DNA from: Candidatus Saccharimonadota bacterium
GTDB lineage: Bacteria > Patescibacteriota > Saccharimonadia > CAILAD01 > BJGX01
Reading direction: 5' to 3'
Assembly: GCA_016191105.1 (NCBI GenBank)
Contig: JACPPH010000006.1
Span: forward strand, 32,670 to 96,669
Length of the DNA stretch: 64,000 nt
Shown piece by piece: positions 46,047-59,981 of this stretch. Below the pieces are notes generated by a model. That model had not been told where the DNA came from. It was given only the letters and a program-made list of their open reading frames with translations, and made no database searches. How positions within the stretch are numbered: position 1 is the first letter of the stretch; each line of letters opens with the position of its first letter. Made by a program: the position numbers and the translations under genes.

Positions 46047-48491
46047 ATGAATCAGTTTATACTACTAACTAGCACGCTGTTTGCACTGTTTCTGTTTATA
46101 CTCTTAGCAGTTGGTTTTTTGGTTTATCGACGCATAATTCATCATGCCAAAAATGTCGAGCGAAGTTTGAAGTTTGTGCCGTTACTGATTAGGCTACCGC
46201 CCCAAGAGGCCAACGAGGCCACCAATCGCGATGTGCGCGAAATGATCAAAGAAAACATTACTAAGGCCGAAGGTGTATTCAATTTACTATCTGGCATAAC
46301 AACTTCTAAGGCTCAAATTTATGGCCGCCGACACATTAGTTTGGAGATTATCGCTGAAGGGCCCATGATTTACTTTTATATGGCCGTGCCGGCTAGCCTT
46401 TTGAGCTCGGTTCAAAAAGCCCTGGCTTCCGGGTATCCAGGAATCCAGATCGAGAAAGCCGAGGATATAAACTTTTTTTCTAAAGTTAGCAAGGCCTCAG
46501 GCGTTCAGGGCGGTGAATTAGATCTCAAACGCGATAGCATACTGCCTATAAACACATTTCGCAATTCTGATAGCGATGCGCTGGGCGGTATTCTCTCCAG
46601 CTTATCTAATCTAGGAGACGATGAGGGAGCGGCTATACAGATTTTAATTCGTCCGGTATCTCAGCGCTGGGTAAAACGAGCCCACCGCAAAGCCCGAGCC
46701 TATTTGACAGGCAAAAAAACCGGTGGCGCCAAAGCTTTTTCGGCTGTTAGTGAATCAGTTCGAGCTGCTGGTGGTGGGTCGGGTGGTGAAAAGTCCCCCG
46801 CCGAAAACCATCAAGTTACCGACATGGAAAAAAAACGATCTGAAATTATTGAAGAAAAAGTTAGAACGCCGGCTTTTGAAACTAATATTCGGCTCGTAGC
46901 TAGCAGTGGCGATCCGGCCAAAGCCAAAGTGTTGTTGCAGGATATGTTGCTTGGCTTTGCGCAAATGACCCAGCAAGATGCTAATAGGTTTGAGTTCCAT
47001 CCAGCTGATACACCACAAAAGATCGCCACCGACTTTATATTCCGATTTTTTAATGAGCGCTTTTTACACCTTCATAAGATGGTCTTAAATTCGACTGAGT
47101 TGGCCACCATATTTCACCTACCAAGTGAAATTATTGAGATTGCTACCCCGCTGCAGCGCAAGGGCGTAAAGGAAGTTGCGGCTCCGACAGGCTTGCCGGA
47201 GCTGGGATTGGTATTGGGTACCAATATATTTCGTGGTGTTGAAGCAACCATTCATTTAAGCGATAACGATAGACGACGGCACTTATACATATTGGGTCAA
47301 ACTGGTACCGGTAAATCTACCTTGTTAGAGAACTTAATGTTGCAAGATGCCGCAGCTGGTAAGGGCTTTGCGTTTATTGACCCCCATGGCGATGCCGCCG
47401 AGAAGCTCTTGGCGATGTTGCCGCCCGGACGAGCCGAAGACGTAATCTACTTTAGCCCGGGCGATACAGAGGTGCCAATGGGCTTTAACATCATGGAATA
47501 CGACCCTAACAAGCCCGAGCAAAAAGACTTTCTGATCCAAGAAGCCATTCAGATGCTTTACAAGCTCTACGACCCACAGCATCAAGGGATAATTGGACCA
47601 CGCTATGAACACTGGTTTAGAAACGCTGCCCTGACAGTCATGGCTGACCCCGAGGGCGGTACCTTTGTGGAGATACCCAAGGTCTTTACTGATGATGAAT
47701 ATCTGAAAAAGAAATTCAAGTATTTAACAGACCCCACTGTCCAAGACTTCTGGACCGGTGAAATGGCTCAAACCGATGCCCACTCTAAATCTGAAATGCT
47801 GGGTTGGTTTGTGTCTAAATTTGGAGCCTTTGCCAACAATGAGATCATGCGAAACATTATTGGCCAAAAACATTCAGCTTTTAACTTTCGCGAAGTTATG
47901 GATGGCAACAAGATTTTGCTGGTGAATTTGAGCAAAGGCCTACTTGGCGACCTCAACTCCAAGTTGCTAGGTATGATTATGGTTATTAAGTTTCAGATGG
48001 CGGCTATGAGTCGAAGCGATACACCCGAAGATCAGCGCCCCGATTTTTCTGTGTACGTAGATGAGTTTCAGAACTTTAGTACTGATAGTTTTGCAACCAT
48101 TCTCTCGGAAGCTCGAAAATACCGGCTAAACCTAATTGTGGCCAATCAATTTATATCGCAATTGGACGAGCAGGTGCGTGACGCCGTATTTGGAAATGTC
48201 GGCTCAATTTTAAGCTTTCGGGTAGGAACCGACGATGCTGAATACATGGAAAAACAATTCCAGCCACAATTTAATCAGGCCGACCTTATAAATATACCCA
48301 ATGGCCAAGGTGTTGGCAGGGTTATGGCCAATGGTGTGCCAACCACACCGTTTAGTATTCATTTCCCACCACCAATAGGCGTGCCTAATCAAGAAATTTT
48401 AAAAGCCATGCGCGATCTAAGCCGTAGTAAGTATGGTCGGCCCAAGAACGAAGTCGAAGCCGAAATTACCAGTAGCCTGGCCGACAAATAA
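46047..48491 (+). CDS. VirD4/TraG/TrwB-like membrane-anchored ATPase
   Basis: RRHLYILGQTGTGKS, IDPHGD, YVDEFQNF, LSEARKY, ANQFISQL. Confidence 0.9.
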   Translation: MNQFILLTSTLFALFLFILLAVGFLVYRRIIHHAKNVERSLKFVPLLIRLPPQEANEATNRDVREMIKENITKAEGVFNLLSGITTSKAQIYGRRHISLEIIAEGPMIYFYMAVPASLLSSVQKALASGYPGIQIEKAEDINFFSKVSKASGVQGGELDLKRDSILPINTFRNSDSDALGGILSSLSNLGDDEGAAIQILIRPVSQRWVKRAHRKARAYLTGKKTGGAKAFSAVSESVRAAGGGSGGEKSPAENHQVTDMEKKRSEIIEEKVRTPAFETNIRLVASSGDPAKAKVLLQDMLLGFAQMTQQDANRFEFHPADTPQKIATDFIFRFFNERFLHLHKMVLNSTELATIFHLPSEIIEIATPLQRKGVKEVAAPTGLPELGLVLGTNIFRGVEATIHLSDNDRRRHLYILGQTGTGKSTLLENLMLQDAAAGKGFAFIDPHGDAAEKLLAMLPPGRAEDVIYFSPGDTEVPMGFNIMEYDPNKPEQKDFLIQEAIQMLYKLYDPQHQGIIGPRYEHWFRNAALTVMADPEGGTFVEIPKVFTDDEYLKKKFKYLTDPTVQDFWTGEMAQTDAHSKSEMLGWFVSKFGAFANNEIMRNIIGQKHSAFNFREVMDGNKILLVNLSKGLLGDLNSKLLGMIMVIKFQMAAMSRSDTPEDQRPDFSVYVDEFQNFSTDSFATILSEARKYRLNLIVANQFISQLDEQVRDAVFGNVGSILSFRVGTDDAEYMEKQFQPQFNQADLINIPNGQGVGRVMANGVPTTPFSIHFPPPIGVPNQEILKAMRDLSRSKYGRPKNEVEAEITSSLADK

Positions 48492-48567
48492 CAAAAAACT
48501 TGCAAACCATCGTCAACCAGTCTAAAATCAAAGCTAAAGTAATAAAGCTGTATATGAGGGTAAACAC

Positions 48568-50850
48568 GTGAATACATTTCGAAAATTAGTAACCGGCGTT
48601 AGTTCGGGTACTACCCCCGTTAGCAGACTGAAGTTTTATGGCAGCCGCCTAGCCCAAGAGGCGGCAACTCGAAAGATTGCAACAGTCTTAATGATTGGCT
48701 TGCTTATATTTCAGGTGGCGGTTTTTCTTTTCCCGCCAACCTCGGCCAGGGCTAACCAGTGCTCAGAAAATAATATCATTCGACCCTGTGGCATAACAGA
48801 CACTAGTAATCAGGGAGTGCTAAATGCTCTTAAGGGACCCGACAATGCAATTCAGCTTATGAATCAGCTAGGGGTGACAGACAGCGATGTTTTAAATGGC
48901 ACCCCTAATCAAACCGTTTGTAAAGGTCAAAATCCGCTTTCTATGGGTCGGGAGGCCGGTAGCGGTGGTTCCTGGTTATTCCCGGGGCATACAGACATTT
49001 ATGTAGGGCCTGCCAGCAGCAGATGGCAGCAAGAATGTTTCTCGGCAGAATTACTCGGCAACAAGGTGCGAGGCAGCGATATTGGTACTGGCGATCCCAA
49101 CCAGTGGTACCAGGTCGGCATTCTATATGCTTGTGGCAACTTGGTGTTTATACCAACCAGCCCGCCTTCAAAATCAATAGCTTGTACCTCCCTAGAAGCG
49201 GCACCATTGGCAGTCGACGTAAACCAGCCTATAAAACTAACTGGCCGGGCAAGTGGCCAAAATATTCCCAACGGCGAACTGGTCGATATGTCGTACCTTG
49301 TATACAGAGGCACCAATCCATCTGTAAATACAACGCCACTAGTTACAAAACTTGAGTCCAAAGGAATACCGTGGAACGGCACAGAGTTTATCGATGACAA
49401 TCCGCCTAAGCAGTTCCAGACAGATCAGCCTGATACCTATACTATTTTATTGGCCGTTGGCTATAACAATAATGGAGCACCTGCGCTAGCTCCAGGCTCA
49501 GGTGTAAATGAATGCCAAAAAGTTGTTACCGTAAAGCAACCGGCACAGCCCACAATTGTTTGCCAGAACCTGAGCATTGCCCCTACTACGCTTGCAGGTG
49601 GACAGCCGCTGTCCAATCTAACCGGTACAGCACAGCTAAAAAATTCCAACGACCCTAATGAGCTAGCTGACATGTCGTTTATATTCCGTGAAAAACAAGC
49701 CGATGGCAGCTTTACTGAGGTGCCTGATGCTAAAGGTAAGAGTAGGCTTGAGGCAGCTGGATTACAGCCTAGCGGCACCGGTATTTACACCGCTGTCAAG
49801 CCAAGTTCAGGCGATTCAAATGATACATTCTTTATGCCCACGAGCACACAGCAAAAAACGTACCAGGTATTCTTAAGAATATACTGGCGTGGCCATCAGA
49901 CTGTTTCCGATGCCTTTAGTGTGCCAGCCTGCCAAAAAGAAATTACAGTGCCACCAGTACAGAACTTTGCTTGCTCTAGCCTAAAGGCGAATCCAACCAG
50001 TGGTAGTGCTCCGCTCGACGTTAACTTCGATGCTGCAGGCATAGCTACCAACACCACTGTTTCAGCTTTTAAGTTCGATTACGGTGATGGCCAAAATCAA
50101 ACCGTAAATACCAACCAGCCAACCGCCAGGGCAGTTCACAAATATACCAAAGGAGGAAGATACACGGCCTCAGTAATTATGCAAACTGCTGCGGGGACGA
50201 CGTCTGTAGTTCCGGTCTGCCAGGCGGTCGTAACAGTTAACGAAAGTGATTTTGCCAAGATTGCTGCCAATATAACCCTGCTTACGTCTGACAGGCAGCC
50301 GACCGATGCCAATGGTGCTGTAGCAAGGGCAGGCGACCAATTGCGCTACACGATCGGTGTTCAAAACAAGGGCGGCGATGTTATAAGGGGCTTTGTGTTT
50401 GATGATGATATAACCGACATATTGGTCTACGCGGATGTAGTTGATCCAGGTGGTGCCCAGGCAGTTAAGCAAGGCGCAACCACTAAATTGGTTTGGGCTC
50501 CGATTGACATACCGGTGGGCACGAGTAGTAGCCCAGGAACAGTCACCAAGCAGTTTACAGTTAAACTTAAAGACCCTATCCCGTTTGTTGCCCAGAAGAC
50601 TACCGATCTACCGGGTACAAACGACTGCCAATTAACCAATACATTTCGTAGCAAAGTGGTTGTAACTCCGCTAGGCGTTGATATCAACAAGCAAATTGAG
50701 TGCGTAACCAAGCAGCTTCCGCAAACTGGTGCGGGCTGGAGTATAGTAATTATGGCTATGCTAGCGGCTGCTTCATTCTTCTTGTTATTGCGCAACCGAT
50801 TGCTCAAGCGTGAGCTACAATTAGTTGAAACACTAACGGAGGGAGCATAA
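48568..50850 (+). CDS. Surface protein with Ig-like/PKD and DUF11-like domains and an LPxTG sorting signal
   Basis: GSAPLDVNF..FDYGDG..HKY..GRYT PKD pattern; GDQLRYTI; LPQTG followed by TM and basic tail. Confidence 0.8.
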   Translation: MNTFRKLVTGVSSGTTPVSRLKFYGSRLAQEAATRKIATVLMIGLLIFQVAVFLFPPTSARANQCSENNIIRPCGITDTSNQGVLNALKGPDNAIQLMNQLGVTDSDVLNGTPNQTVCKGQNPLSMGREAGSGGSWLFPGHTDIYVGPASSRWQQECFSAELLGNKVRGSDIGTGDPNQWYQVGILYACGNLVFIPTSPPSKSIACTSLEAAPLAVDVNQPIKLTGRASGQNIPNGELVDMSYLVYRGTNPSVNTTPLVTKLESKGIPWNGTEFIDDNPPKQFQTDQPDTYTILLAVGYNNNGAPALAPGSGVNECQKVVTVKQPAQPTIVCQNLSIAPTTLAGGQPLSNLTGTAQLKNSNDPNELADMSFIFREKQADGSFTEVPDAKGKSRLEAAGLQPSGTGIYTAVKPSSGDSNDTFFMPTSTQQKTYQVFLRIYWRGHQTVSDAFSVPACQKEITVPPVQNFACSSLKANPTSGSAPLDVNFDAAGIATNTTVSAFKFDYGDGQNQTVNTNQPTARAVHKYTKGGRYTASVIMQTAAGTTSVVPVCQAVVTVNESDFAKIAANITLLTSDRQPTDANGAVARAGDQLRYTIGVQNKGGDVIRGFVFDDDITDILVYADVVDPGGAQAVKQGATTKLVWAPIDIPVGTSSSPGTVTKQFTVKLKDPIPFVAQKTTDLPGTNDCQLTNTFRSKVVVTPLGVDINKQIECVTKQLPQTGAGWSIVIMAMLAAASFFLLLRNRLLKRELQLVETLTEGA

Positions 50851-50851
50851 G

Positions 50852-51469
50852 ATGGCTGAAAAAGGTGGCGAAGAACTCCAGGGAGTAGGTAGCGAGCAGC
50901 AGGGCGAGAAGCTTCAGGCCGAATTAAGTGCCGAAAGGAAAAGTGCCAAGGCCACAGAGCGCGAGATTAAATCTTCTAAAGCAGAGCTTGAAAAAAGCGG
51001 TGAAAAAGCCGAGAAAAAATTAGCTCGTGAGGCCGAGAAAGAAGCCACCGAAGCTAATTTAGCCAAAAAATCTGAAGCTTCTGAAGCCAAAAAGGCTAAG
51101 CAGGCCGAAAAATCAGAAAAAAAAGAACCAATAGTAGCCGCCACACCCAAAGAGCGTAATCGAGCCTACAAAAAAGAAATGCGCAAGGTTCAGGCGCAAC
51201 TCTCACCAGGCTCTAGAATGTTTTCTAAGGTTGTACATAACCGAGCCGTAGAGGTCACCAGCAATGTGGCCGAAAAAACAGTTGTTCGTTCGTCGGTGTT
51301 GATTGGTGGTACGGTTGTGGGCATTATACTTGGCGGCCTAGTGTACTTTTCTGCTAATCGGTATGGTTACGGATTGCCCAATTGGTCGTTGGTATTCTTT
51401 TTAATAATGGGTGGTGTATTGGGTGTAGTAATTGAATTTTTACTCAAAGCCACACGCTCTACTAAGTAA
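50852..51469 (+). CDS. Hypothetical protein: charged coiled coil plus two C-terminal TM helices
   Basis: E/K/A-rich helix; two Gly-rich hydrophobic segments. Confidence 0.75.
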   Translation: MAEKGGEELQGVGSEQQGEKLQAELSAERKSAKATEREIKSSKAELEKSGEKAEKKLAREAEKEATEANLAKKSEASEAKKAKQAEKSEKKEPIVAATPKERNRAYKKEMRKVQAQLSPGSRMFSKVVHNRAVEVTSNVAEKTVVRSSVLIGGTVVGIILGGLVYFSANRYGYGLPNWSLVFFLIMGGVLGVVIEFLLKATRSTK

Positions 51470-51565: not shown

Positions 51566-52405
51566 TTGAATCTTAGTGTTTTCAAGAGTGGCTTGAGGTT
51601 TTTGGGGTGCTTTTTTGGCACTGTTTTAGTTTTAATACTTGTGGCTCAAGCCTCTACTGCCGCAACGGTCTCTCAGGGCTATCAAAGCAACGACATATTG
51701 GTTACTGGCAACATTGTGAGCACAAATAGCAATGCCAACAATTACCAGGTTCAGCTTGCTACTACTGATAATTTTAACAATCTTTTGGGTATAGTGGTGA
51801 CGCCGAATTCTACTCTGCTCAGCATAGACAATACCTCGAGCTCAGCTCAGGTGGCAAGCAGCGGTGTTGCAAATGGCTTTGTCAGCGACATTAATGGCAA
51901 TATCAGCAAAGGTGACGCAGTTGCCATTTCTCCTATAGCAGGTGTAGGGATGAAGGCTACGCAACCAACGCGAATAGTTGGTGTTGCTCAAGCCGATTTT
52001 AAGTCGGCTACAAATGTACAGTCAAAAAATCTAGTAGATAAGCAGGGTCAATCTAAGCAAGTCCGAGTTGGGTTAATCCCGGTCTTGGTGAACGTTGGCG
52101 ATTATCAGCCCAGCAATTATTCTGGCAATTCTGCGGTTGTACGCGGCGTACAGTCGGCCGTTTCTAATCTCGCTGGCCGGTCAGTATCGGCAACCAGAGC
52201 TATGGCGGCTTTTGGGGTCATAACGCTCGCTATTATATTGGCCATTATTGTTTTGTATGCCTCGGTGACCGGGAGTATACGTTCAATTGGCCGAAATCCA
52301 TTGGCCAAGAAATCAGTTTTGCGAAGTTTGGCCCAGGTAATAGTGGCAGTAGGATTAATAATAGTCGCGGCAATCGCAGCCGTATATGTAATAGTAATCG
52401 CTTAA
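51566..52405 (+). CDS. Secreted-domain protein with C-terminal ATP-synthase c-subunit-like hairpin
   Basis: Signal peptide, beta-rich domain, TM-SIGRNPLA-TM; immediately upstream of the alpha-like gene. Confidence 0.65.
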   Translation: MNLSVFKSGLRFLGCFFGTVLVLILVAQASTAATVSQGYQSNDILVTGNIVSTNSNANNYQVQLATTDNFNNLLGIVVTPNSTLLSIDNTSSSAQVASSGVANGFVSDINGNISKGDAVAISPIAGVGMKATQPTRIVGVAQADFKSATNVQSKNLVDKQGQSKQVRVGLIPVLVNVGDYQPSNYSGNSAVVRGVQSAVSNLAGRSVSATRAMAAFGVITLAIILAIIVLYASVTGSIRSIGRNPLAKKSVLRSLAQVIVAVGLIIVAAIAAVYVIVIA

Positions 52406-52411
52406 AACATT

Positions 52412-53812
52412 ATGACAACCACTACAAAAACCCAGTCTGTTTCAAAAGTGCTTTCACGCCAAGGCTTTGTGGTAGAAGCGAACCCGATTGAGGGGATTCA
52501 CTTGCGAGCAACTGTAGAATTCGAGGATGGCACAATCGGCCTGGTTTGGGCTATAGAAGACACCATGAGGGTGTTGCTGCTAAATGATAGCGAAAAGGCC
52601 ACTGTTGGCTCCAAGCTCAAGCCACTACACCGGCAGGTTGCAATCGATTGTGGCGAGCACCTTTTGGGTCAAACAGTCGATTCTTTGGCCAGGCCGCTCG
52701 ATGCTAAAACCAAAGCGACTGCAGGCCAAGCTTTGCCAGTTTTTAATCTGGCGCCAAGCTTTTATGAGCGAGCCGTTGTGGACGCACAACTTGAAACCAG
52801 CGTAAGCTTGGTGGATACGCTCTTCCCCATAGTCAAAGGCCAACGCATAGCGGTCTTGGGCGATGCCAAGTCGGGTAAAACAACTTTTTTAAGCCAAGCT
52901 GCTATTCACCAGGCCCAGAACGATTGCATAATAATCTACGTTGTGATAGCCAAGGCCAAGCACAGTGTCGAAAAACTTAAATATAGACTATATCAGTCGG
53001 GGGCACTTAAGAACACAGTGATTGTGGTGGCCGACAGCTTCGATGCTTTGCCGCTATCGTTTTTGGCCCCCTACACCGGCTGTACTATTGGCGAATGGTT
53101 CTGGCACACCGGTCGCGATGTGGTAGTTATTTATGATGATTTGAGTAATCACGCCAAAATATACCGTGAACTTAGTTTGCTGCTTCGGACGAATCCGGGC
53201 AGAGAGGGTTATCCGGGCAATATGTTCTATACCCACTCCTCGTTATTAGAGCGAGCCGGTAAATTTAAAAAAAGCGGTTTTAGCCAGACAGTTTTAGCCG
53301 CTGGTACAACACCCAACGGCGATATAACTGGTTATTTTCCAACCAATCTAATATCTATGACCGACGGTCAGATCGTATTCGACCTCGAGACTATGCGCAA
53401 GGGAATTAAGCCGGCGGTTAATATTGGCTTGTCGGTTAGTCGTGTAGGTGGTCGCAGCCAAGAGCCCGAAATTCAAGAGCTTTCGGCTCGTGTTATGGAG
53501 GTTTTGGCAGGTTATCGACAGGCTAGCAGTTTTGCAAGGTTTGGTTCACAGCTTTCGGAGGTAGCCGCCAAGCAGCTTAAGCTTGGAGCCAAACTTTATG
53601 AACTGTTTGCTCAAGCGCCAGACCAAGCTTTTAGCCTAGCTGAGCAACGAGTAATGTTAGAAACGATATTTTTAACCAATGACATCGATTCTTTAAATGT
53701 TGGCTGGCTTAAGAGTGTGATCCACGACGTTGTTAAGTATGACCTCAAAACTACCAGTGATTATAAAGCCTTGGCCAAAGAGCTGATTAAAAGTAACCCG
53801 GTGGTTAAATAA
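52412..53812 (+). CDS. atpA: Divergent F1-ATPase alpha-like subunit
   Basis: GDAKSGKT, YDDLS, PGREGYPG, LLERAGK, ISMTDGQ, SVSRVGG. Confidence 0.9.
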   Translation: MTTTTKTQSVSKVLSRQGFVVEANPIEGIHLRATVEFEDGTIGLVWAIEDTMRVLLLNDSEKATVGSKLKPLHRQVAIDCGEHLLGQTVDSLARPLDAKTKATAGQALPVFNLAPSFYERAVVDAQLETSVSLVDTLFPIVKGQRIAVLGDAKSGKTTFLSQAAIHQAQNDCIIIYVVIAKAKHSVEKLKYRLYQSGALKNTVIVVADSFDALPLSFLAPYTGCTIGEWFWHTGRDVVVIYDDLSNHAKIYRELSLLLRTNPGREGYPGNMFYTHSSLLERAGKFKKSGFSQTVLAAGTTPNGDITGYFPTNLISMTDGQIVFDLETMRKGIKPAVNIGLSVSRVGGRSQEPEIQELSARVMEVLAGYRQASSFARFGSQLSEVAAKQLKLGAKLYELFAQAPDQAFSLAEQRVMLETIFLTNDIDSLNVGWLKSVIHDVVKYDLKTTSDYKALAKELIKSNPVVK

Positions 53813-54654
53813 TGGCTAAACCAACAGAAATTTTACGTGCTTACCAAGACACTATCGTGGTTGAAGAGGTCGCCCAGGTGTTTGAAAATGTTGCTTCTGT
53901 CCAGATTAGACGAATTAAAAGCAGGGTTATTGCAAGCCGGGAGTTTTTTCATGAACTGTGGGGAATGTACTCGCAGCTACGGTTAGATAGTAAGCTGAAA
54001 GATGATTTTGGGCCAGCCAAAACCAAAAACCAAGCCGTGCTATTAATCAGCTCAGACAGCGGCCTTTCGGGTTCGATCGATGAACGTCTAGTTGAGACCA
54101 TGATGCAAGAGGTCAACATTCGCTTAGTAGATGTGGTGGTTATCGGTCGGCGTGCGGAACAATTATTGACCCAAAAGCACATGAAAGCCGTTAGCGTTTT
54201 CCCGTTGCCCGACATTACCAAATCAATTCGGATATTGCCGCTGGTGAACTATCTGGCGCCATATAAAAAAGTAACTATATTTTATGAACGATTCGTGTCT
54301 TTGTCGCACCAAGAGATAGTTGCCTTTGAGCTTCAGGAGAGCGTAAAGCGCTTAAGCGAAGCCGAGTCGATTCGCGTAGACACAAACTTAATGTATGCCA
54401 GTGATTATATTTTCGAGCCTAGCCTGGCTGAGGTAGTTCTTTATCTGGAATCCATGATGCAGGCCACTGCCCTTACCGAGATGATTCTGGAGTCAAGATT
54501 GGCTCAGCTAGCCAGTCGCTATACAGCCATGAGCTCGGCTCACGACAATGCCGAGCAGAGAAAAAACCAGCTCAAGCGAGCCTACTCAATTGCTCAACGC
54601 CGAGGCAAAGACCAATTTAACCAAATATTTATTAGTCGGGAGCAGGCTAAATGA
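53812..54654 (+). CDS. atpG: Divergent F1-ATPase gamma-like subunit
   Basis: SSDSGLSG, YIFEPS, ASRYTAMSSAHDNA; lies between the alpha- and beta-like genes. Confidence 0.88.
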   Translation: MAKPTEILRAYQDTIVVEEVAQVFENVASVQIRRIKSRVIASREFFHELWGMYSQLRLDSKLKDDFGPAKTKNQAVLLISSDSGLSGSIDERLVETMMQEVNIRLVDVVVIGRRAEQLLTQKHMKAVSVFPLPDITKSIRILPLVNYLAPYKKVTIFYERFVSLSHQEIVAFELQESVKRLSEAESIRVDTNLMYASDYIFEPSLAEVVLYLESMMQATALTEMILESRLAQLASRYTAMSSAHDNAEQRKNQLKRAYSIAQRRGKDQFNQIFISREQAK

Positions 54655-55958
54655 AAACCTTTGTTGGCAAAGTGGTAAAAATGCGGTGGCTGCTAGTTAC
54701 AGTAGAGTACACAGGCGATAAGCCTCAGATATTTGAGTTGTTAAGCACCGGCAGTAAAAGTTTGCTGCTGGTTTACTGCATAGAGTCAGAGACTAGGCTT
54801 TTGGCTCTTAGTTTAGACCCCAATCTTACCGTAGCCTTGGGCGAAAAAATATCCAGCTTGAATAAGCACATTACACTACCGGTTGGTAGCGACGCTCTAG
54901 GCAGGGTTTTTAATGCCACTGGCACAGCTGTAGATGGCCTGCCGACGCCTAAGTCAACTACTACCATTGAGCTTAAGCCTTACCACGGCAGCGGCAAAAG
55001 TGGCTATGGTACATCTACAGATCTAATAGAAACAGGCATAAAAGTAATTGATTTCTTTGCCCCGTTTGTGCGAGGCCGCAAGATCGGCATAGTTGGTGGC
55101 GCAGGAGTGGGCAAGACTGTGCTTACAACCGAGCTAATGCACAACGTAGCCAGCGCCGATCGGGGCTTATCGTTTTTTGTTGGGATTGGTGAGCGCATAC
55201 GTGAAGCCCATGAGCTGTATAATAATCTGCGCGACAGCGGCCTACTAAAAAACACTGTTATGTATCTTGGCCAAATGAATGAAACGGCGGCTATGCGATC
55301 ATTGGTGGGTTTGAGTGCAGCCGCCAGTGCTCGTTACTTTCGCGACCAAGCCAAACGCGATGTGATATTTTTTGTAGACAATATTTACCGTTACCTGCAA
55401 GCTGGCAATGAGCTTGCTACCACCCTGGGTGAGTTGCCAAGCGAAGGGGGTTACCAGCCGACTCTGTTTTCTGATTTGCTTCAGTTTGAAGAGGGTCTAG
55501 ATACCAATGAATTTGGAGCCATAACTTCGGTCCAGTCGATCTTCATTCCGGCCGACGATCTTTCTGACCCAGCAGTTGTTGAGGTTTATCAGCAGCTCGA
55601 TAGTGTAATTGTACTGAGCCGCGAGGTTATGGAGTCTGGCATATTGCCAGCTGTAGATTTGGTCAACACCAGCTCGTCGTTGCTCTCGCCCGAAATTGTT
55701 GGTGAACGCCACTACTTTTTGGCTTCGCAAGTGGCCCAAATAATGCAAAAATACCAAGCCTTACAAGGAATTATTACGATTATTGGTGAGAGCGAACTAT
55801 CTATAACCGACCGCGTTGACTATAACAAGGCCAAAAGATTAATCGACTACTTTTCACAGTCCCTGTTTGTGACCGAACAGCTAACCGGCAAGAAGGGCCA
55901 GTATGTTGACCGCGAGGCCATGTTGTCGGGAGTTGAGGAGATATTAACCTCGGGATAG
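54651..55958 (+). CDS. atpD: Divergent F1-ATPase beta-like subunit
   Basis: GGAGVGKT, GERIRE, GQMNE, FVDNIYRY, GYQPTL, PADDLSDP. Confidence 0.93.
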   Translation: MKTFVGKVVKMRWLLVTVEYTGDKPQIFELLSTGSKSLLLVYCIESETRLLALSLDPNLTVALGEKISSLNKHITLPVGSDALGRVFNATGTAVDGLPTPKSTTTIELKPYHGSGKSGYGTSTDLIETGIKVIDFFAPFVRGRKIGIVGGAGVGKTVLTTELMHNVASADRGLSFFVGIGERIREAHELYNNLRDSGLLKNTVMYLGQMNETAAMRSLVGLSAAASARYFRDQAKRDVIFFVDNIYRYLQAGNELATTLGELPSEGGYQPTLFSDLLQFEEGLDTNEFGAITSVQSIFIPADDLSDPAVVEVYQQLDSVIVLSREVMESGILPAVDLVNTSSSLLSPEIVGERHYFLASQVAQIMQKYQALQGIITIIGESELSITDRVDYNKAKRLIDYFSQSLFVTEQLTGKKGQYVDREAMLSGVEEILTSG

Positions 55959-55960: not shown

Positions 55961-56209
55961 ATGCGGCCAACCTTTGAAGTCAAGATATTCTCACCATTTG
56001 AGACATACTATCAAGGCCAAGCTTACAGCTTATCGGCCAATAATGCCAGCGGACCATTTGATGTGCTGGCCGGCCACGCTAACTTTATCTGCCTGCTTTT
56101 ACCAGGCCCAGTGCGCATTGATACGCCCTATGGCCAGCGTGAGTACAATCTGACGCGTGGAATTGTTAGGGTTAATCAGAGTAAAGTTACACTGTTCGCC
56201 AATGTTTAA
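55961..56209 (+). CDS. atpC: F1-ATPase epsilon-like subunit, N-terminal domain only
   Basis: GPFDVLAGHANFI motif; 82 aa. Confidence 0.8.
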   Translation: MRPTFEVKIFSPFETYYQGQAYSLSANNASGPFDVLAGHANFICLLLPGPVRIDTPYGQREYNLTRGIVRVNQSKVTLFANV

Positions 56210-56774: not shown

Positions 56775-59700
56775 GTGGAGCCGACAGCACAAACAAATAA
56801 TCAAACACTCGATTCAACATTTTCATCTCAAGTGAATCCCGAAGGTTTGCTGCCTTCGGATGTTGCTAGTGCCAACAATCAAGTTCAGGCATTACATCAG
56901 CGCAATCGCTACTTTCAGCTATTGTGGGCGGTTTTAATTGCCATTGCTCTACTTTTAGTTGGTTTGGCGGTTTGGCTTTTTTTGCGCAATAATACCAAGG
57001 TAATTAGTACTACCGGTGTTGCCGAACAGTACAGCCCGACCAGAGTTAATTTGACTAATACCGGCAATCCGACCGCGGTTAATTTGGGGCAGGTAAACAT
57101 TAATGGTGACCTCCAGGTTTTAGGTGATATTGCAGTCGGTGGCAGTATAAACGGCAACGGCAGCGGCATTACCAACATAAACCCAAACAATATTTCTGGA
57201 GTTATACCCGTTGGTCAGCTCGACCCAAATGTGGCGCTTCTCAACCGGAACTTTCAAACCTTTGTGGGCACCAATCAATTCTTTCGTAATAGTAGTAACT
57301 CAGTAGCGGCTTTTGAGATTCAAAATGCCTCCTCAGCACCGATTTTTAGCGTTGACACTAGCCAGGGTGCAGTGGCGATTAATTCGACGGTAACCTCACA
57401 GAATGGACTACAATTTGAAACTAACGGCAATGGCCGCTTTGCGGGCACACTCCAGGTGGGCGCCCAGTCAAATCCCAGTGTTTCGATTTTGAATACCGGC
57501 ACCCTGTTTAGCAACGACATTCAGCGCGTATTGACGGTCCAAGACATTACTCAGCCAAGCACAAATGTGCCTGGCCGAATTTACGTTGGAACCAGTGCCG
57601 AGCTATTGGCCGATCCACAAATTGATCCGGTTGCTATCACCTACTATCCGCTTCCTCCTGGTTTTCCGACCAACGTCCCGCTAACTGTTTCTGGTAATAA
57701 AAATATCTTTGCTGGCGGCTATTCGGCCGTACAAACAGCCAGCACTAACAGTAAGGACTATTTTATTGTTGGTGGCAACCTTAGTGGTGCCACACATGCT
57801 GGGTCGGGCAACGTTTTGGTAGATATTGGTCAGTTTAGTACGGTGAGTAATGTAGGTGCTGGATCAATTACGGCGGCGCTGGCAAATGTGGTGGCGCCAA
57901 CTATGACCCAGGGCGGCATTACCAACTACACCGGCTATACCGCACTTGACCCCCAGAGTTCAGCCCTAACTGGCTATGGTTTGCAGCCTTTGATAACTGG
58001 CGGGAGTTTGTTTACCCAAACTGGCATAGATATACAGTGGCAACACTCGGCTACTGGCGCAATTGGTACGTTTGCCAACTTAAATCTATATTCAGAAGGC
58101 CAGTCTTCAAATAACCTTATGGAGGGCTCGCTCATAATAGGTCAGTGCAACACATATAGTGCGGTTAACCTGTATGAGCTACTTAATATTGCTAATCCTA
58201 CCAACCGAACCAATTGTTTAAGCTCTACAGCAAATCAAGTTAGGTTGACCGTTGCAGGGACTGCTAGTCAGACCAGCGACCTAAGCCGATGGACAAATAG
58301 TAGTGGCACGGTGCTGGATAGCATTAGTTCGAGCGGCAAGTTGAATGTTCAAGGTTCGGGTTCGGAATTTGCGCTCAACGTAGGCAATACTAGCCTCAAC
58401 GGTGGCTTAATGATAAAAGGCACATTTGGCTCTGGCGACACCCTAACTACTACTGGCATCGGCACTAGAGCTTTTGTGTATCCAAAAAAAGCAGCCTTTC
58501 GGGCGGGTATTATTACAGGCAGTGGTCCGTATGCTGGTGCCGAATGGAACGATGCCAATATTGGCGACCGGACGGTTGTGTTTGGCAAAGACAGCGCCGC
58601 AGTTGGCAGCGATAACTTTGTGGCTGGCAATAACCTCAACGTTACTGGTTCTGCAAATGCAGTTTTTGGTGATGCGACTGGTTTTGGTGCTTCAATTGCC
58701 GGAATTGGAAATTTTAGTGTTGGCCCAAATACGATTAGTGCTACGACCGGCGTTGGCAATGCCGTGTTTAATGTGTTTAGTGGTGTTAGCTCTGTAATAA
58801 ACACGATTGGTACCGGCGGCAATGTAGTATTTGGTAACGGCAACTCAATCAGCACCGGCAGCTCTAACAGGTTATTTGGCAATAGCATTACTGCCACGGG
58901 TAGCAATGCCTATATAATTAACCTAAGCTCTACGGCAGTAAGTTCTTCGGCAAGCAATGTATTTTCGGTAATGAATGGCAAGGTAGGCATAGGCAGCACA
59001 AACCCCACTGCTCGCCTAGATGTTAGTGGTAGCTCGGGTACTGAAATAACGGCCATCTTCGACAACGGAACTTCTACTGGCGATATTATGCGCGCAAGAG
59101 ACGGCGGCACCCAAGTGTTCGCACTGGCAAATGAAGGTGCGGCCACATTCCAAAACAAAACTAACTCTACAGCGGCATTCCAGATTCAAAATGCTGCGGG
59201 AACTTCTAACTTGCTAATTGCTGATACCACCAATACCCGAATTGGCATTGGTGCTAGTGGACCAACCAACACTCTAACTGTTACCAACACAGGCACCACT
59301 AGTGTGGCCAAGTTTAATGGCTCAAGCAGCACCCAATGCACGGTGGTTACTGGCACCGGTTGGAGCTGTAGCTCCGACGAACGGTTAAAAACCAATATAC
59401 TATCGATTGATGATGGTTTGGATAAGATTATGCAACTGCGCGGCGTAACGTTTAATTGGGTGAGCGATCCGAACGGAGAACAGCAAGATGGATTTATAGC
59501 CCAGGAGGTTCAAAAAGTTTTGCCAGAGCTGGTAAGCACTGATACAAATGGTTACCAGAGCCTTAATAAAGACGGTATTTTAGCTTATCTTGTTAAAGCC
59601 GTTCAGCAACAACAGAGTCAAATTGACCAGCTAAAAAATATTGCTTCTAGCAGCGCTACGTCGATAGACGTAATTAAGATCCTTGCCGATGCCCAGGCCG

Positions 59701-59981
59701 TAACCCTAAGTGGCGACCTAACTGTAAATGGCCAAGTCGTGGTAGCTGGCAACTTGCAGCTCAAAGGCGACAACACGGGCGTAATTAGGGTACCGGCTGG
59801 CCAAACCCGTGTGCGCATGAGCTTTAATAGGCCATTCCAGGTGGCACCAAATGTTACGCTGACAGCCAAAGCCTTAACAAAAGTGAGCTACGCTGTTGAT
59901 AACGAATCAACTACCGGGTTCGATGTAATCTTGGAGTCGCCACAAGATCAGGATACGGTTTTGAATTACCACGCTCTCTAG
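56775..59981 (+). CDS. Membrane-anchored tail-fibre-like protein with Peptidase S74 chaperone domain
   Basis: N-terminal TM, G/S/T/N-rich beta repeats, KVGIGSTNPTARLDV, SSDERLKTNI..GFIAQEV..PELV..LVKAVQ. Confidence 0.88.
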   Translation: MEPTAQTNNQTLDSTFSSQVNPEGLLPSDVASANNQVQALHQRNRYFQLLWAVLIAIALLLVGLAVWLFLRNNTKVISTTGVAEQYSPTRVNLTNTGNPTAVNLGQVNINGDLQVLGDIAVGGSINGNGSGITNINPNNISGVIPVGQLDPNVALLNRNFQTFVGTNQFFRNSSNSVAAFEIQNASSAPIFSVDTSQGAVAINSTVTSQNGLQFETNGNGRFAGTLQVGAQSNPSVSILNTGTLFSNDIQRVLTVQDITQPSTNVPGRIYVGTSAELLADPQIDPVAITYYPLPPGFPTNVPLTVSGNKNIFAGGYSAVQTASTNSKDYFIVGGNLSGATHAGSGNVLVDIGQFSTVSNVGAGSITAALANVVAPTMTQGGITNYTGYTALDPQSSALTGYGLQPLITGGSLFTQTGIDIQWQHSATGAIGTFANLNLYSEGQSSNNLMEGSLIIGQCNTYSAVNLYELLNIANPTNRTNCLSSTANQVRLTVAGTASQTSDLSRWTNSSGTVLDSISSSGKLNVQGSGSEFALNVGNTSLNGGLMIKGTFGSGDTLTTTGIGTRAFVYPKKAAFRAGIITGSGPYAGAEWNDANIGDRTVVFGKDSAAVGSDNFVAGNNLNVTGSANAVFGDATGFGASIAGIGNFSVGPNTISATTGVGNAVFNVFSGVSSVINTIGTGGNVVFGNGNSISTGSSNRLFGNSITATGSNAYIINLSSTAVSSSASNVFSVMNGKVGIGSTNPTARLDVSGSSGTEITAIFDNGTSTGDIMRARDGGTQVFALANEGAATFQNKTNSTAAFQIQNAAGTSNLLIADTTNTRIGIGASGPTNTLTVTNTGTTSVAKFNGSSSTQCTVVTGTGWSCSSDERLKTNILSIDDGLDKIMQLRGVTFNWVSDPNGEQQDGFIAQEVQKVLPELVSTDTNGYQSLNKDGILAYLVKAVQQQQSQIDQLKNIASSSATSIDVIKILADAQAVTLSGDLTVNGQVVVAGNLQLKGDNTGVIRVPAGQTRVRMSFNRPFQVAPNVTLTAKALTKVSYAVDNESTTGFDVILESPQDQDTVLNYHAL

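What the first reader, a model, noticed from the sequence alone, without database searches (positions are those of the whole stretch)
51566..52405. c-subunit-like hairpin lacking the ion-binding Glu/Asp, fused to an exported domain
Seen: the last ~68 aa are TM helix, SIGRNPLA (IGRNP at 52286-52300), TM helix. Established: AtpE has an R-(Q/N)-P loop that docks gamma/epsilon and a carboxylate about 20 residues later. Seen: there is no D or E in either helix and no GxGxGxG packing motif. A signal peptide and a ~180-aa beta-rich domain (NGNISKGD..GVGMKAT..IVGVA) precede it, and the gene ends 6 bp before the alpha-like gene. Inference: the ring keeps its F1 docking face, cannot carry ions, may have a different diameter, and displays an extracellular crown. 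From recollection, a similar domain occurs after S74 in large CPR surface proteins.
Basis: partly seen in the sequence, partly recalled or inferred. Interest (0 to 1): 0.85.

Follow-up and report, generated by a model that had tools for sequence, protein, structure and literature searches.

The report
ATP-synthase rotor subunit carrying outside domain
This gene encodes a relative of the ATP-synthase rotor (c) subunit that lacks the ion-binding acid, carries a predicted exported phage-decoration-like domain and heads an ATP-synthase-like operon in a genome where no ion-channel (a) subunit was found, so the machine likely burns ATP to do mechanical work at the cell surface rather than to move ions or make ATP.

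Summary
ORF 51566-52405 (279 aa) is a hydrophobic N-terminal signal sequence, a beta-rich domain and a C-terminal two-helix hairpin with an SIGRNP loop and no D/E. It ends 6 bp before an alpha-like gene.

- **Homology to subunit c.** The hairpin is homologous to F-type subunit c: hhalign gave 96.5-97.7% over 67-69 columns, against at most 1.1% in controls.
- **Conserved features.** GRNP is invariant in 120 of 120 homologues. The canonical carboxylate position is never acidic in them.
- **Exported domain.** It folds like phage capsid cement/decoration proteins.
- **Genome context.** The genome (99.7% complete) shows no canonical c or a subunit. It has two such operons; the second has the order fusion-b-delta-alpha-gamma-beta-epsilon.
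- **Distribution.** The system occurs in 92 of 151 Saccharimonadia genomes sampled. With other exported domains, it also occurs in other Patescibacteria classes, often beside a canonical ATP synthase.

The most likely reading is an ion-blind, ATP-hydrolysing F-type motor whose ring displays outside domains. Ring formation, rotation and the target are inferred, not shown.

The closest known analogue is the mycoplasma "F1-like X0" ATPase. I found no paper describing this family. Earlier agents of this scan reached the same reading on other genomes (AI notes, not independent evidence).

The parts
51566..52405 (+). Xc: exported-domain/c-subunit-hairpin fusion, 279 aa. This is the finding.
   Evidence: ORF. 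901 homologues. AF2 mean pLDDT 84.7. No Pfam family reaches threshold.
51566..51652 (+). N-terminal hydrophobic signal sequence (aa 1-29). Cleavage after AQA is inferred.
   Evidence: Helix 4-27 in the model. A hydrophobic N-terminal stretch is present in 113 of 120 family members. No dedicated signal-peptide predictor was available.
51665..52108 (+). Beta-rich domain (aa 34-181), predicted to be exported, with a phage cement/decoration-like fold.
   Evidence: Foldseek against the PDB: Borrelia phage BB1 procapsid outer-shell chains 8pkh at E 6.5e-5, and Pam3 8hdt, T1 9kzj, XM1 7kmx, phi29 gp12 C-fragment 3gqh. BFVD preneck-appendage and DUF2190 proteins down to E 2e-8. Pfam PF23982 hits 12 of 32 members, best E 6.8e-5.
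52190..52399 (+). c-subunit-derived hairpin: helix 209-243, loop, helix 245-278.
   Evidence: hhalign against canonical c: 96.5% probability, E 7.7e-10, 67 columns. Controls reached at most 1.1%. Hairpin-only AF2 model has pLDDT 93.2. 41 of the 43 listed top Foldseek rows come from F-type ATP synthase or c-ring entries.
52289..52300 (+). GRNP loop (G242-P245), the predicted cytoplasmic face for gamma/epsilon.
   Evidence: Invariant in 32/32, 12/12 and 120/120 sequences. The same GRNP is found in the 12 canonical c subunits of the class read. Docking itself is inferred.
52352..52354 (+). G263, the residue aligned with the ion-binding Glu/Asp of canonical c (position P+18).
   Evidence: Ungapped hhalign alignment. 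Position P+18 is never D/E in 120 of 120 homologues.
52334..52336 (+). Q257 (P+12), a conserved polar residue of helix 2.
   Evidence: Q in 88 and E in 19 of 120 homologues. Its role is unknown.
52412..53812 (+). F1 alpha-like subunit (466 aa).
   Evidence: PF00006 at 211 bits. Below every NCBIfam cut-off. The SVSRVGG Arg is kept. The N-terminal stretch seen in the operons that have b and delta is missing.
53812..54654 (+). F1 gamma-like subunit (280 aa).
   Evidence: PF00231 at 101.8 bits.
54651..55958 (+). F1 beta-like catalytic subunit (435 aa).
   Evidence: PF00006 at 196 bits. Walker A GGAGVGKT, GERIRE and Walker B are kept. The Arg of canonical LLGRLPS is replaced. Best PDB matches are F1 beta chains, E 1.8e-99.
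55961..56209 (+). Epsilon-like subunit, beta-sandwich domain only (82 aa).
   Evidence: PF02823 at 51 bits covering residues 5-81. Canonical epsilons of the class are 137-151 aa.
50852..51469 (+). 205-aa protein with a charged N-terminal part and two C-terminal TM helices. Neighbour; membership of the machine is uncertain.
   Evidence: Homologues lie just upstream of Xc in 2 related genomes, G036 and G105. No Pfam family reaches threshold.
46047..50850 (+). Upstream neighbour module: a VirD4/TraG-like ATPase (46047-48491) and a PKD-domain surface protein with an LPQTG motif (48568-50850).
   Evidence: Pfam. The same order w814-w760-w205-Xc is seen in G105, and w760-w205-Xc in G036. LPQTG is read from the translation.
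56775..59981 (+). Downstream 1068-aa surface fibre protein with a Peptidase_S74 domain.
   Evidence: PF13884 at 65.3 bits, residues 867-920. A homologue lies downstream of the orthologous operon in G036.

Best explanation
The 279-residue protein is a homologue of F-type ATP synthase subunit c that has no ion-binding carboxylate and carries a beta-rich domain predicted to be exported. It likely forms the membrane rotor ring of an F1-like ATPase without an a subunit, which would hydrolyse ATP to turn or move its outside domains rather than to move ions.

**Shown**
- The hairpin is homologous to subunit c.
- The GRNP loop is invariant.
- The carboxylate and the glycine motif are absent.
- The gene sits in the atpE position ahead of (b, delta,) alpha, gamma, beta and epsilon genes.
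- No a or c subunit gene was found in this genome.
- The family is wide, with variable exported domains.

**Inferred**
- The subunits assemble into a ring.
- Gamma and epsilon dock on the GRNP loops, as they do on c rings.
- The enzyme works only as an ATPase.
- Torque or movement passes through the membrane to the exported domains.
- These domains act on surface structures, such as the giant fibre proteins that carry the same domain.
For: **1. Homology to subunit c**
- hhalign of 22 hairpins against 10 canonical Saccharimonadia c subunits: 96.5% probability, E 7.7e-10, 67 columns. With the 10 hairpins from other classes alone: 97.7%, E 1.4e-12, 69 columns.
- Controls: the reversed c alignment gave 0.1-0.5%, and 20 column shuffles gave at most 1.1%.
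- In 6,981 frames, the six best hits after the genome's own two copies are all canonical c subunits.
- The hairpin profile hits the canonical c of G034 at E 5.8e-4.
- PF00137 reaches 20.9 bits on the G105 homologue and 16.1 bits over model positions 2-60 of 60 on the L055 fusion.
- NF005521 (subunit C) hits 1 of 32 members, E 0.0043.

**2. Conserved and lost features**
- GRNP is present in 120 of 120 homologues; position P+18 is D/E in 0 of 120.

**3. Operon position**
- The paralogous operon has the order Xc-b-delta(OSCP, 31.7 bits)-alpha-gamma-beta-epsilon.
- 15 of 18 Xc loci examined have the ATPase genes next to them.

**4. No ion path**
- PF00137 and PF00119 find nothing in the 99.73%-complete genome at E<=1.
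- PF00119 scores 126-151 bits on canonical a subunits of the class, so the search is sensitive enough.
- 12 of 34 Xc carriers in the phylum sample have no a subunit detected.
- G323, G339 and G383 have one alpha/beta pair, the one next to Xc, and no a or c detected.

**5. Hydrolysis-type features**
- Epsilon is the beta-sandwich domain only, 79-108 aa against 137-151 aa.

**6. Display platform**
- The exported domain varies: a phage-cement-like fold here, an NHL propeller in L050 and Big_1/invasin Ig domains in L055.

**7. Precedent**
- The mycoplasma Type 3 F1-like X0 ATPase is required for a cell-surface function, MIB-MIP (PMC12994834, abstract and section 2.1 read).
Against:
- Fold similarity of a 72-residue helical hairpin is weak evidence. 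Foldseek found no match at E<=1e-3. In VIA-align, unrelated hairpins score Z 9-10, close to the best c subunit at Z 10.3.
- hmmscan finds ATP-synt_C in 0 of 12 hairpins and 0 of 32 full-length members. The hairpin profile finds nothing in the PDB at E<=10.
- The Saccharimonadia-only hairpin profile reached just 59.5% over 25 columns.
- All 9 Xc-linked beta subunits checked lack the Arg of LLGRLPS. From memory this is a phosphate-binding residue, so turnover may be slow or altered.
- The window's operon has no b or delta gene, and alpha lacks the N-terminal stretch, so what holds the stator there is unknown.
- 19 of 120 homologues have Glu at P+12.
- Topology rests on hydrophobicity; the positive-inside bias is small, 2.56 K+R per 19 residues against 1.77 per 15.
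- There is no expression evidence.
Confidence: 0.6

Rival explanations
1. It is still an ion-translocating F-type ATPase or synthase. The conserved polar residue at P+12 (Q or E) would form an unusual ion site, and an unrecognised membrane protein, or the canonical a subunit where one exists, would supply the channel.
For: Position P+12 is Q in 88 and E in 19 of 120 homologues. 22 of 34 carriers in the phylum sample also have a canonical a subunit somewhere in the genome. The b and delta stator genes are kept in the ancestral operon.
Against: Gln cannot be protonated, and it is the majority residue. P+12 lies 6 residues nearer the cytoplasmic loop than the canonical site. No a subunit was found in this genome or in 11 further carriers. 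No multi-TM gene lies in the 8 distant loci listed. Where a canonical a exists, it sits in its own complete operon with its own c.
Confidence: 0.1
2. The F1-like head does not rotate a ring. The fusion protein would be a static membrane anchor or scaffold for surface domains. The ATPase would drive assembly, secretion or conformational switching by push-pull movement, as proposed for some F1-like or T3SS-type ATPases.
For: The window operon lacks b and delta. The beta subunit lacks a canonical Arg. The glycine packing motif of ring-forming c subunits is absent. Neighbours include a VirD4-like ATPase and surface proteins.
Against: Gamma and epsilon, the rotor shaft parts, are kept in all 15 operons seen. 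The loop that contacts them in c rings is invariant in 120 of 120 homologues. The b and delta (OSCP) genes are kept in most operons.
Confidence: 0.2
3. The hairpin is a type IV secretion pilin-like (VirB2/TrbC) hairpin carrying a passenger domain. It would belong to the neighbouring VirD4-like module rather than to the ATPase.
For: A VirD4/TraG-like gene lies 3 kb upstream. An earlier scan note, e1-4489800, describes pilin-like hairpins with passenger domains in another bacterium.
Against: At E<=10, no T4SS pilin family appears among the listed Pfam hits of the 12 hairpins (first 25 of 26 families shown) or of the 32 members (all 25 shown). Only TraL_transposon appears, in 3 of 12 hairpins at E about 1. 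Profile-profile homology is to subunit c. The gene travels with the ATPase genes in loci that have no VirD4-like neighbour.
Confidence: 0.03
4. It is a decaying remnant of an atp operon after loss of respiration, without function.
For: The a and c subunits are lost, the carboxylate is lost and a catalytic-site Arg is lost.
Against: All frames are intact. There are 706 clusters at 50% identity and 92 of 151 class genomes carry it. It coexists with an intact canonical operon in 53 of those genomes. Two diverged copies are kept in a 0.93-Mb genome. Loop and domain residues are invariant.
Confidence: 0.02

Closest known systems
F-type ATP synthase subunit c (AtpE; Pfam PF00137), especially the Saccharimonadia type with an A-x-GRNPE loop
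   Same: Two-helix hairpin of the same length, with 34 residues from the loop Pro to the C-terminus. The GRNP loop is identical. The gene sits directly ahead of b-delta-alpha-gamma-beta-epsilon. Profile-profile homology extends end to end.
   Different: No Glu/Asp at the ion site: G263 here, and 0 of 120 family members are acidic there. No GxGxGxG motif. About 200 extra N-terminal residues (signal sequence plus exported domain). No a subunit partner. Below the Pfam gathering score.
Mycoplasma Type 3 (and Type 2) 'F1-like X0' ATPases, in particular 'Protein 5' (MSC_0620 / MMCAP2_0577)
   Same: A second, divergent alpha/beta/gamma/epsilon set without a and c subunits. The gene just upstream of alpha-like encodes a signal peptide, a large domain and two C-terminal TM helices joined by a short loop. 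Alpha-like lacks the N-terminal helix that binds delta. The system serves a cell-surface function (PMC12994834 section 2.1 and abstract; PMC3369863 passages).
   Different: The mycoplasma authors report no homology of Protein 5 to Fo subunits. I could not fetch that protein to test it. The mycoplasma clusters have a 12-TM Protein 1 and no b or delta, whereas most Patescibacteria operons keep b and delta and show no multi-TM gene. The alpha and beta subunits here score below the MSC_0619/MSC_0618 cut-offs: 240.6 against 520, and 399 against 570.
Mycoplasma mobile gliding G1-ATPase (PDB 9io5)
   Same: An F1-derived ATPase used for mechanical work rather than for ion coupling. Its beta matches at E 2.7e-80.
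   Different: G1 is a cytoplasmic dimeric chain. The beta here is closer to ordinary F1 beta (E 1.8e-99). No gliding-complex families reach their cut-offs.
N-ATPase (alternate F1F0)
   Same: A second F-type operon beside the canonical one.
   Different: From memory, N-ATPases keep a and c subunits with an ion site. NCBIfam alt_F1F0 beta scores 391.8 against a cut-off of 752.
Phage capsid cement/decoration and appendage-chaperone domains (PF23982 XM1_gp53, DUF2190, phi29 gp12 C-terminal fragment)
   Same: The fold of the exported domain.
   Different: Sequence identity is 8-24% and TM-scores are modest (0.27-0.56 in the PDB rows). Here the domain is tethered to a membrane hairpin and is not part of a virion.

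Membership tests
F-type ATP synthase subunit c (PF00137) | Hairpin of two transmembrane helices, about 70-80 residues | tested here: met
   AF2 helices 209-243 and 245-278. Hairpin-only model pLDDT 93.2. rmsd 1.1-1.7 A to c subunits over 66-71 columns. Generic hairpins score similarly in VIA-align.
F-type ATP synthase subunit c (PF00137) | Polar loop R-(Q/N)-P between the helices | tested here: met
   GRNP is present in 120 of 120 homologues. It is identical to the loop of the 12 canonical c subunits of the class read.
F-type ATP synthase subunit c (PF00137) | Sequence-profile homology to the family | tested here: met
   hhalign 96.5-97.7%, E 7.7e-10 to 1.4e-12, against controls of at most 1.1%. 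Rank test.
F-type ATP synthase subunit c (PF00137) | Score over Pfam's gathering cut-off (24 bits) | tested here: not met
   0 of 12 hairpins and 0 of 32 members hit at E<=10. The best relatives reach 20.9 bits and 16.1 bits.
F-type ATP synthase subunit c (PF00137) | Ion-binding Glu/Asp in the middle of helix 2 | tested here: not met
   G263 in this protein. 0 of 120 homologues have D/E at P+18.
F-type ATP synthase subunit c (PF00137) | Glycine packing motif GxGxGxG in helix 1 | tested here: not met
   It aligns with AIILAIIVLY.
F-type ATP synthase subunit c (PF00137) | Works against an a subunit (PF00119) encoded in the genome | tested here: not met
   No PF00119 match at E<=1 in the 99.73%-complete genome. 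The model finds canonical a subunits of the class at 126-151 bits.
F-type ATP synthase subunit c (PF00137) | Assembles into a ring that binds gamma/epsilon | not testable with these tools
Mycoplasma F1-like X0 ATPase (Type 2/3) | Alpha-, beta-, gamma- and epsilon-like genes clustered without a and c subunits | tested here: met
Mycoplasma F1-like X0 ATPase (Type 2/3) | Gene upstream of alpha-like encodes signal peptide + large domain + two C-terminal TM helices (Protein 5) | tested here: inconclusive
   The architecture is the same when compared with the papers' descriptions (PMC12994834 section 2.1; PMC3369863). Sequence homology was not tested because I held no mycoplasma sequence. No MSC_062x family appears among the NCBIfam hits of 32 members at E<=10.
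Mycoplasma F1-like X0 ATPase (Type 2/3) | 12-TM Protein 1 and cytoplasmic Protein 2 in the cluster | tested here: not met
   No multi-TM ORF lies in the window operon or in the 8 distant loci listed.
Mycoplasma F1-like X0 ATPase (Type 2/3) | NCBIfam MSC_0618 beta / MSC_0619 alpha cut-offs | tested here: not met
   399 against 570 bits and 240.6 against 520 bits.
Canonical F1 (atpA/atpD equivalogs) | NCBIfam equivalog cut-offs | tested here: not met
   atpD 402.3 against 462.85. atpA 356.8 against 484.45 and NF009884 384.8 against 554.
Phage cement/decoration domain (PF23982 and relatives) | Fold and profile similarity of the exported domain | tested here: inconclusive
   Foldseek probability 1.00, E 6.5e-5 (PDB) and 2e-8 (BFVD), but TM-scores are 0.27-0.56. 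PF23982 hits 12 of 32 members but not this protein.

The most novel reading that the evidence does not exclude
Patescibacteria possess an outward-facing rotary motor. It would be an F-type ATPase stripped of its ion path, whose c-derived ring carries interchangeable extracellular domains and spins them with ATP. This would give bacteria with little or no proton-motive force a way to power work outside the membrane, such as moving or tensioning giant surface fibres during attachment to a host. The mycoplasma 'Protein 5' of F1-like X0 ATPases would be the same invention, which would unite the two systems.
Probability: 0.3. Interest if true: 0.95.

Novelty: new variant of a known kind. Interest (0 to 1): 0.8.

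Why it matters
- **Metabolic reconstructions.** Genome surveys of CPR/Saccharibacteria count "F-type ATPase" modules and read them as proton-driven ATP synthases (for example PMC11659515, passage read). In this genome both alpha/beta pairs belong to a system in which I found no proton path. In the class sample, 39 of 151 genomes have the fusion but no canonical c subunit. Energy budgets drawn from such module counts may therefore be wrong.
- **Mechanism.** A c ring that keeps its F1 face, loses ion binding and gains outside domains would be a direct way to pass ATP energy across a membrane as torque.
- **Link to the mycoplasma system.** It gives a testable evolutionary origin for the unexplained membrane part of 'F1-like X0' ATPases.
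- **Relevance to lifestyle.** The machine may bear on how ultrasmall episymbionts handle their surface fibres.

Tried and rejected
- **Complex prediction** (4 copies of residues 32-279): the queue was full three times, nothing was folded, and the tool told me to stop. Ring and self-association remain untested.
- **hmmsearch of the hairpin profile against PDB sequences:** 0 hits at E<=10.
- **hmmscan for ATP-synt_C:** no hit in 12 hairpins or 32 members.
- **First hhalign, Saccharimonadia hairpins only:** 59.5% over 25 columns. The result became decisive only after adding hairpins from other classes.
- **Foldseek on the hairpin:** no match at E<=1e-3.
- **VIA-align wide on the hairpin:** a c subunit ranks first (Z 10.3) and 10 of the top 20 rows are ATP-synthase c subunits or c-ring entries, but unrelated hairpins score Z 9-10, so geometry alone does not discriminate.
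- **Beta-subunit tree of 20 rows:** the deep forks are unresolved, so I make no claim that Xc-linked betas form one clade.
- **Sequencing runs:** no RNA holder is listed, and read laying was not used.
- **Promoter scan:** no site reported in the 96-bp gap before the gene.
0 of 3 giant ORFs that carry the domain have a Peptidase_S74 hit at E<=1e-3.
- **T4SS-pilin reading:** rejected (see rival explanations).
- **Literature searches that found no description of this family:**
  - 'Saccharibacteria' + 'F1-like': 0 papers.
  - 'F1-like ATPase' / 'c-ring' / 'extracellular'.
  - 'Saccharibacteria' / 'ATP synthase' / 'subunit c' / 'subunit a'.
  - 'Candidate Phyla Radiation' / 'F-type ATPase' / 'subunit a' / 'missing'.
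  - A six-term search: 0 papers.
  - 'Saccharibacteria' + 'F-type ATPase': 25 papers, of which I read passages in 2.
- **bioRxiv 10.64898/2026.10.01.756066:** it examines 'unusual genomic neighborhoods' of CPR beta subunits. I read passages and sections 3.3-3.4 and found no mention of the fusion.
Full report
**1. The observation**

The ORF at 51566-52405 (+ strand, TTG start, 279 aa) exists as described. From the sequence, I241-G242-R243-N244-P245 are encoded at 52286-52300. The stop ends at 52405, and the alpha-like gene starts at 52412, six bases later.

The last 72 residues have no Asp or Glu and no GxGxGxG motif. Pfam finds no family for the protein.

An AlphaFold2 model built on 32 family members (mean pLDDT 84.7) shows:
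- an N-terminal hydrophobic helix (4-27);
- a beta-rich domain (strands 35-180);
- a short helix (190-203);
- two long helices, 209-243 and 245-278, joined at the GRNP loop.

**2. Context in the window and the genome**

The gene is followed by four ATP-synthase-like genes:

| Gene | Size | Pfam match |
|---|---|---|
| alpha-like | 466 aa | PF00006, 211 bits |
| gamma-like | 280 aa | PF00231, 101.8 bits |
| beta-like | 435 aa | PF00006, 196 bits |
| epsilon-like | 82 aa | PF02823, beta-sandwich only |

The window lies in a 927,837-base genome of 10 contigs, 99.73% complete. In that genome PF00137 (subunit c) and PF00119 (subunit a) find nothing at E<=1. PF00119 is sensitive enough for this test: it scores 126-151 bits on the a subunits of three canonical operons from the same class.

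PF00006 finds four strong hits, which make two operons. The second lies about 35 kb downstream on the same contig, outside the window. It reads:
- a 276-aa paralogue of this protein;
- a b-like protein (one N-terminal TM helix plus a long helical part);
- delta (OSCP, 31.7 bits against a cut-off of 22.3);
- alpha, gamma, beta and epsilon.

MurC lies upstream of that operon. The fusion protein therefore occupies the atpE position of a standard atp operon, and no atpB was found.

**3. The family**

- 901 proteins match at E<=1e-3. Those that carry a source name are hypothetical proteins of Saccharibacteria/Saccharimonadia.
- In the 120 listed, GRNP is present in all 120.
- The distance from the loop Pro to the C-terminus is 33-36 residues.
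- Position P+18 is never acidic; it is L, V, I or F in 102 of 120.
- Position P+12 is Gln in 88 and Glu in 19.
- An acidic residue in helix 2 occurs in 19 of 120, always that Glu. An acidic residue in helix 1 occurs in 1 of 120.

**4. Homology to subunit c**

The canonical c subunits of 12 Saccharimonadia genomes have the loop A-x-GRNP(E/D), 34 residues from Pro to the end, and Glu or Asp at P+18.

| Test | Result |
|---|---|
| hhalign, 12 Saccharimonadia hairpins vs canonical c | 59.5%, E 9e-5, 25 columns |
| hhalign, 22 hairpins (10 from other classes added) | 96.5%, E 7.7e-10, 67 columns |
| hhalign, the 10 distant hairpins alone | 97.7%, E 1.4e-12, 69 columns |
| Control: reversed c alignment | 0.1-0.5% |
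| Control: 20 column-shuffled versions | at most 1.1% |

Supporting results:
- In 6,981 reading frames, the six best hits of the hairpin HMM after the genome's own two copies are all canonical c subunits (E 0.0013-0.099). The first background frame comes at E 0.14.
- The hairpin profile hits the canonical c of G034 at E 5.8e-4.
- PF00137 reaches 20.9 bits on the homologue of G105 and 16.1 bits over the whole model on a 674-aa fusion. Both are below the 24-bit cut-off.
- One of 32 members hits NCBIfam 'subunit C' at E 0.0043.

Results against:
- hmmscan finds ATP-synt_C in none of the 12 hairpins or 32 members.
- The profile finds nothing in the PDB sequences at E<=10.

In the ungapped alignment, the ion-binding Glu aligns with G263 and the glycine motif aligns with AIILAIIVLY.

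**5. Structure of the hairpin**

A hairpin-only model has pLDDT 93.2. Foldseek against 350,542 PDB chains gives no E<=1e-3. However, 41 of the 43 listed top rows come from F-type ATP synthase or c-ring entries, with TM-scores of 0.6-0.9 and rmsd from 1.1 A.

VIA-align over 48,161 chains puts a c subunit first (6ynw_P: Z 10.3, rmsd 1.1 A over 71 residues). Ten of the top 20 rows are ATP-synthase c subunits or c-ring entries. Unrelated helical hairpins reach Z 9-10, so shape alone does not discriminate. The case for homology rests on the profile comparison, not on the fold.

**6. The exported domain**

Foldseek matches the model to phage capsid cement/decoration proteins and to phi29 parts:
- Borrelia phage BB1 8pkh (E 6.5e-5);
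- cyanophage Pam3 8hdt;
- T1 9kzj;
- HFTV1 8qsy;
- XM1 7kmx;
- the phi29 gp12 C-terminal fragment and the gp8.5 base.

It also matches predicted phage preneck-appendage and DUF2190 proteins down to E 2e-8. Pfam PF23982 hits 12 of 32 members.

The domain recurs inside giant ORFs of other Saccharimonadia. In three that I examined (2263, 823 and 1731 aa) it lies at 1827-1942, 391-503 and 1422-1536, with E 1e-19 to 1e-21. None of the three has a Peptidase_S74 hit.

Topology follows from the N-terminal hydrophobic stretch, present in 113 of 120 members: domain outside, loop inside. The positive-inside bias is small.

**7. Distribution**

*Class sample (151 genomes).* 104 match the full-length profile. 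In 12 of these only the N-domain matches, in other proteins, which leaves 92 with the fusion. PF00137 is over its cut-off in 71.

| | Genomes |
|---|---|
| Fusion and canonical c | 53 |
| Fusion only | 39 |
| Canonical c only | 18 |
| Neither | 41 |

(Cross-tabulation.)

- One complete genome (G061) has a canonical a-c-b-alpha-gamma-beta-epsilon operon plus two fusion operons.
- G036, of the window's own family, has two fusion operons and no canonical c subunit detected.

*Gene order.* The usual order is fusion-b-delta-alpha-gamma-beta-epsilon. The window's type, also seen in G036, has lost b and delta.

*Neighbours of the window's operon:*
- upstream, a 205-aa protein with two TM helices, a PKD surface protein and a VirD4-like ATPase (the PKD and 205-aa proteins also upstream in G036; all three in G105);
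- downstream, an S74 fibre protein (also downstream in G036).

*Phylum sample (251 genomes).* The hairpin profile hits 34 genomes, 24 of them outside Saccharimonadia. In the ten such loci I fetched, the fusion proteins are 255-674 aa with the loop (E/K/Q/V)A(L/I/V)GRNPLA.
- Six of them are followed by alpha-gamma-beta-epsilon, five with b and delta in between.
- One is the near relative from G163, with delta-alpha-gamma-beta-epsilon downstream.
- Two have no ATPase genes nearby.
- One is on a 4.9-kb contig.

Counting the nine Saccharimonadia-type loci (the G163 locus among them), 15 of 18 loci have the ATPase genes next to the fusion.

The exported domains differ between these loci: an NHL beta-propeller in L050 and Big_1/invasin Ig-like domains in L055.

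PF00119 is found in 134 of 251 genomes. That tally includes G297, which is flagged unpublished. Among the 34 carriers, 22 have an a subunit and 12 do not. G323, G339 and G383 have a single alpha/beta pair, the one beside the fusion, and neither a nor c detected.

Across 1.84 billion cluster representatives, 706 match the hairpin at E<=1e-3. The hairpin ends within about 20 residues of the C-terminus in all 150 listed.

**8. The F1-like part**

- Beta keeps Walker A (GGAGVGKT), the GERxRE catalytic stretch and Walker B. Alpha keeps SVSRVGG.
- In all 9 fusion-linked betas checked, the Arg of canonical LLGRLPS is replaced (E, A, T, Q, V or D), and PSAVGYQP becomes PSE(G/D/E/S)GYQ. The 3 canonical betas keep the Arg. 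From memory, that Arg helps bind phosphate; I did not test what its loss means.
- Epsilon lacks its C-terminal helical domain: 79-108 aa against 137-151 aa. From memory, that domain restrains hydrolysis in bacteria.
- The window's alpha and its G036 orthologue lack the N-terminal stretch present in operons that have delta. The mycoplasma paper says that helix binds delta and b (PMC12994834 section 2.1).
- No NCBIfam equivalog cut-off is reached by alpha or beta. The best PDB matches are ordinary F1 betas at E 1.8e-99; M. mobile G1 beta scores 2.7e-80.
- A 20-row beta tree leaves the deep forks open. It groups (window, G036a) and (paralogue, G036b) together with G105 at 98/94 support.

**9. Mechanism**

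What is shown:
- a c-subunit homologue that keeps the loop known to face gamma and epsilon;
- loss of the ion site and the glycine packing motif;
- an added domain predicted to be exported;
- an atp-type operon with no a subunit gene, in a genome where none was found.

The most economical reading is an F-type motor that can only hydrolyse ATP. Its ring would pass the movement to domains outside the membrane. The interchangeable exported domains and the recurrence of this one in giant surface proteins suggest work on surface structures. Each of these steps is inference.

Rivals, with my estimate of their likelihood:
- an unusual ion site at P+12 with an unknown channel partner (0.1);
- a static anchor with a non-rotary ATPase (0.2);
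- a T4SS pilin-like hairpin (0.03);
- decay of a former atp operon (0.02).

**10. Comparison with what is known**

The closest described systems are the mycoplasma Type 2/3 'F1-like X0' ATPases. They have seven genes, with no a, b, c or delta. A 'Protein 5' with a signal peptide, a large domain and two C-terminal TM helices is encoded just upstream of alpha-like. The Type 3 system is needed for the surface MIB-MIP antibody-cleavage function (PMC12994834, abstract and section 2.1; PMC3369863, passages).

Those authors saw no homology of Protein 5 to Fo subunits. I could not obtain a mycoplasma sequence to test it.

I found no paper that describes the Patescibacteria fusion. Two Saccharibacteria genome surveys treat the F-type ATPase module as ordinary (passages).

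Earlier agents of this scan noted the same kind of gene on other genomes and read it the same way. These are AI notes that I saw after my own tests, and they are not independent evidence.

**11. Not done**

- Ring or gamma/epsilon docking prediction (tool unavailable).
- Any expression evidence; no RNA holder is listed.
- Signal-peptide cleavage prediction.
- The mycoplasma comparison.

**12. Verdict**

It remains inferred for ring, docking, diameter and crown.
- The S74 recollection is not supported.
- This is a new variant of a known kind (F1-like ATPases without Fo), with a clear c-subunit origin for its membrane part, and it is wide in Patescibacteria.

Noticed in passing
window 54651-55958 (beta-like), with L006, L031-L036, L047-L054: All 9 fusion-linked beta subunits checked replace the Arg of canonical LLGRLPS and read PSE(G/D/E/S)GYQ instead of PSAVGYQP. 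The 3 canonical betas of the class keep the Arg. This may be a signature of the system and hints at altered phosphate handling.
   Followed up: partly
window 52412-53812 (alpha-like) and L034: The alpha subunits of the two operons without b and delta lack the N-terminal stretch (MFENQTF...-type) present in the operons that have delta. This fits real loss of the peripheral stalk in this operon type.
   Followed up: partly
window 46047-51469: The block of VirD4/TraG-like ATPase, PKD surface protein with LPQTG motif and 205-aa protein with two C-terminal TM helices recurs upstream of the fusion gene: all three in G105 (L033), the latter two in G036 (L034). It may be a separate module or an accessory of the motor.
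   Followed up: partly
window 51496-51522: TTGACC, a 15-nt spacer, then TATAAT lie in the 96-bp gap before the gene. The spacer is shorter than the tool's 16-18 range, so the scan did not list it.
   Followed up: no
window 51566-52405, residues D117, S122, P123, K130: The exported domain has an invariant GD...SP..GVxMKA stretch in 32 of 32 members. An invariant Ser and Lys eight residues apart recall, from memory, the Ser-Lys dyads of self-cleaving fibre chaperone domains. This was not tested.
   Followed up: no
L056 5750-12541, L057 33-2504, L058 469-5664: Giant ORFs (2263, 823 and 1731 aa) of other Saccharimonadia carry one copy of the same exported domain at E 1e-19 to 1e-21. One of them has LVIVD repeats.
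   Followed up: partly
L050 7159-8652; L055 2452-4476: In other Patescibacteria classes the same hairpin is fused to an NHL beta-propeller (497 aa) or to Big_1/invasin Ig-like domains (674 aa).
   Followed up: partly
G168 and G171: These two Patescibacteria genomes combine the fusion operon with what looks like a V/A-type ATPase: 600-aa A-like and 470-aa B-like subunits, and c-type proteolipids of 80 and 188 aa open frames. No F-type a subunit was detected.
   Followed up: no
window 56157-56687: A 176-aa ORF with no Pfam family overlaps the end of the epsilon-like gene. Its true start, and whether it belongs to the operon, are unknown.
   Followed up: no
G012:C3:236634-237425: A second full-length copy of the fusion gene in G012 has no alpha/beta pair near it. 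That genome has only two pairs, so solitary copies exist.
   Followed up: no
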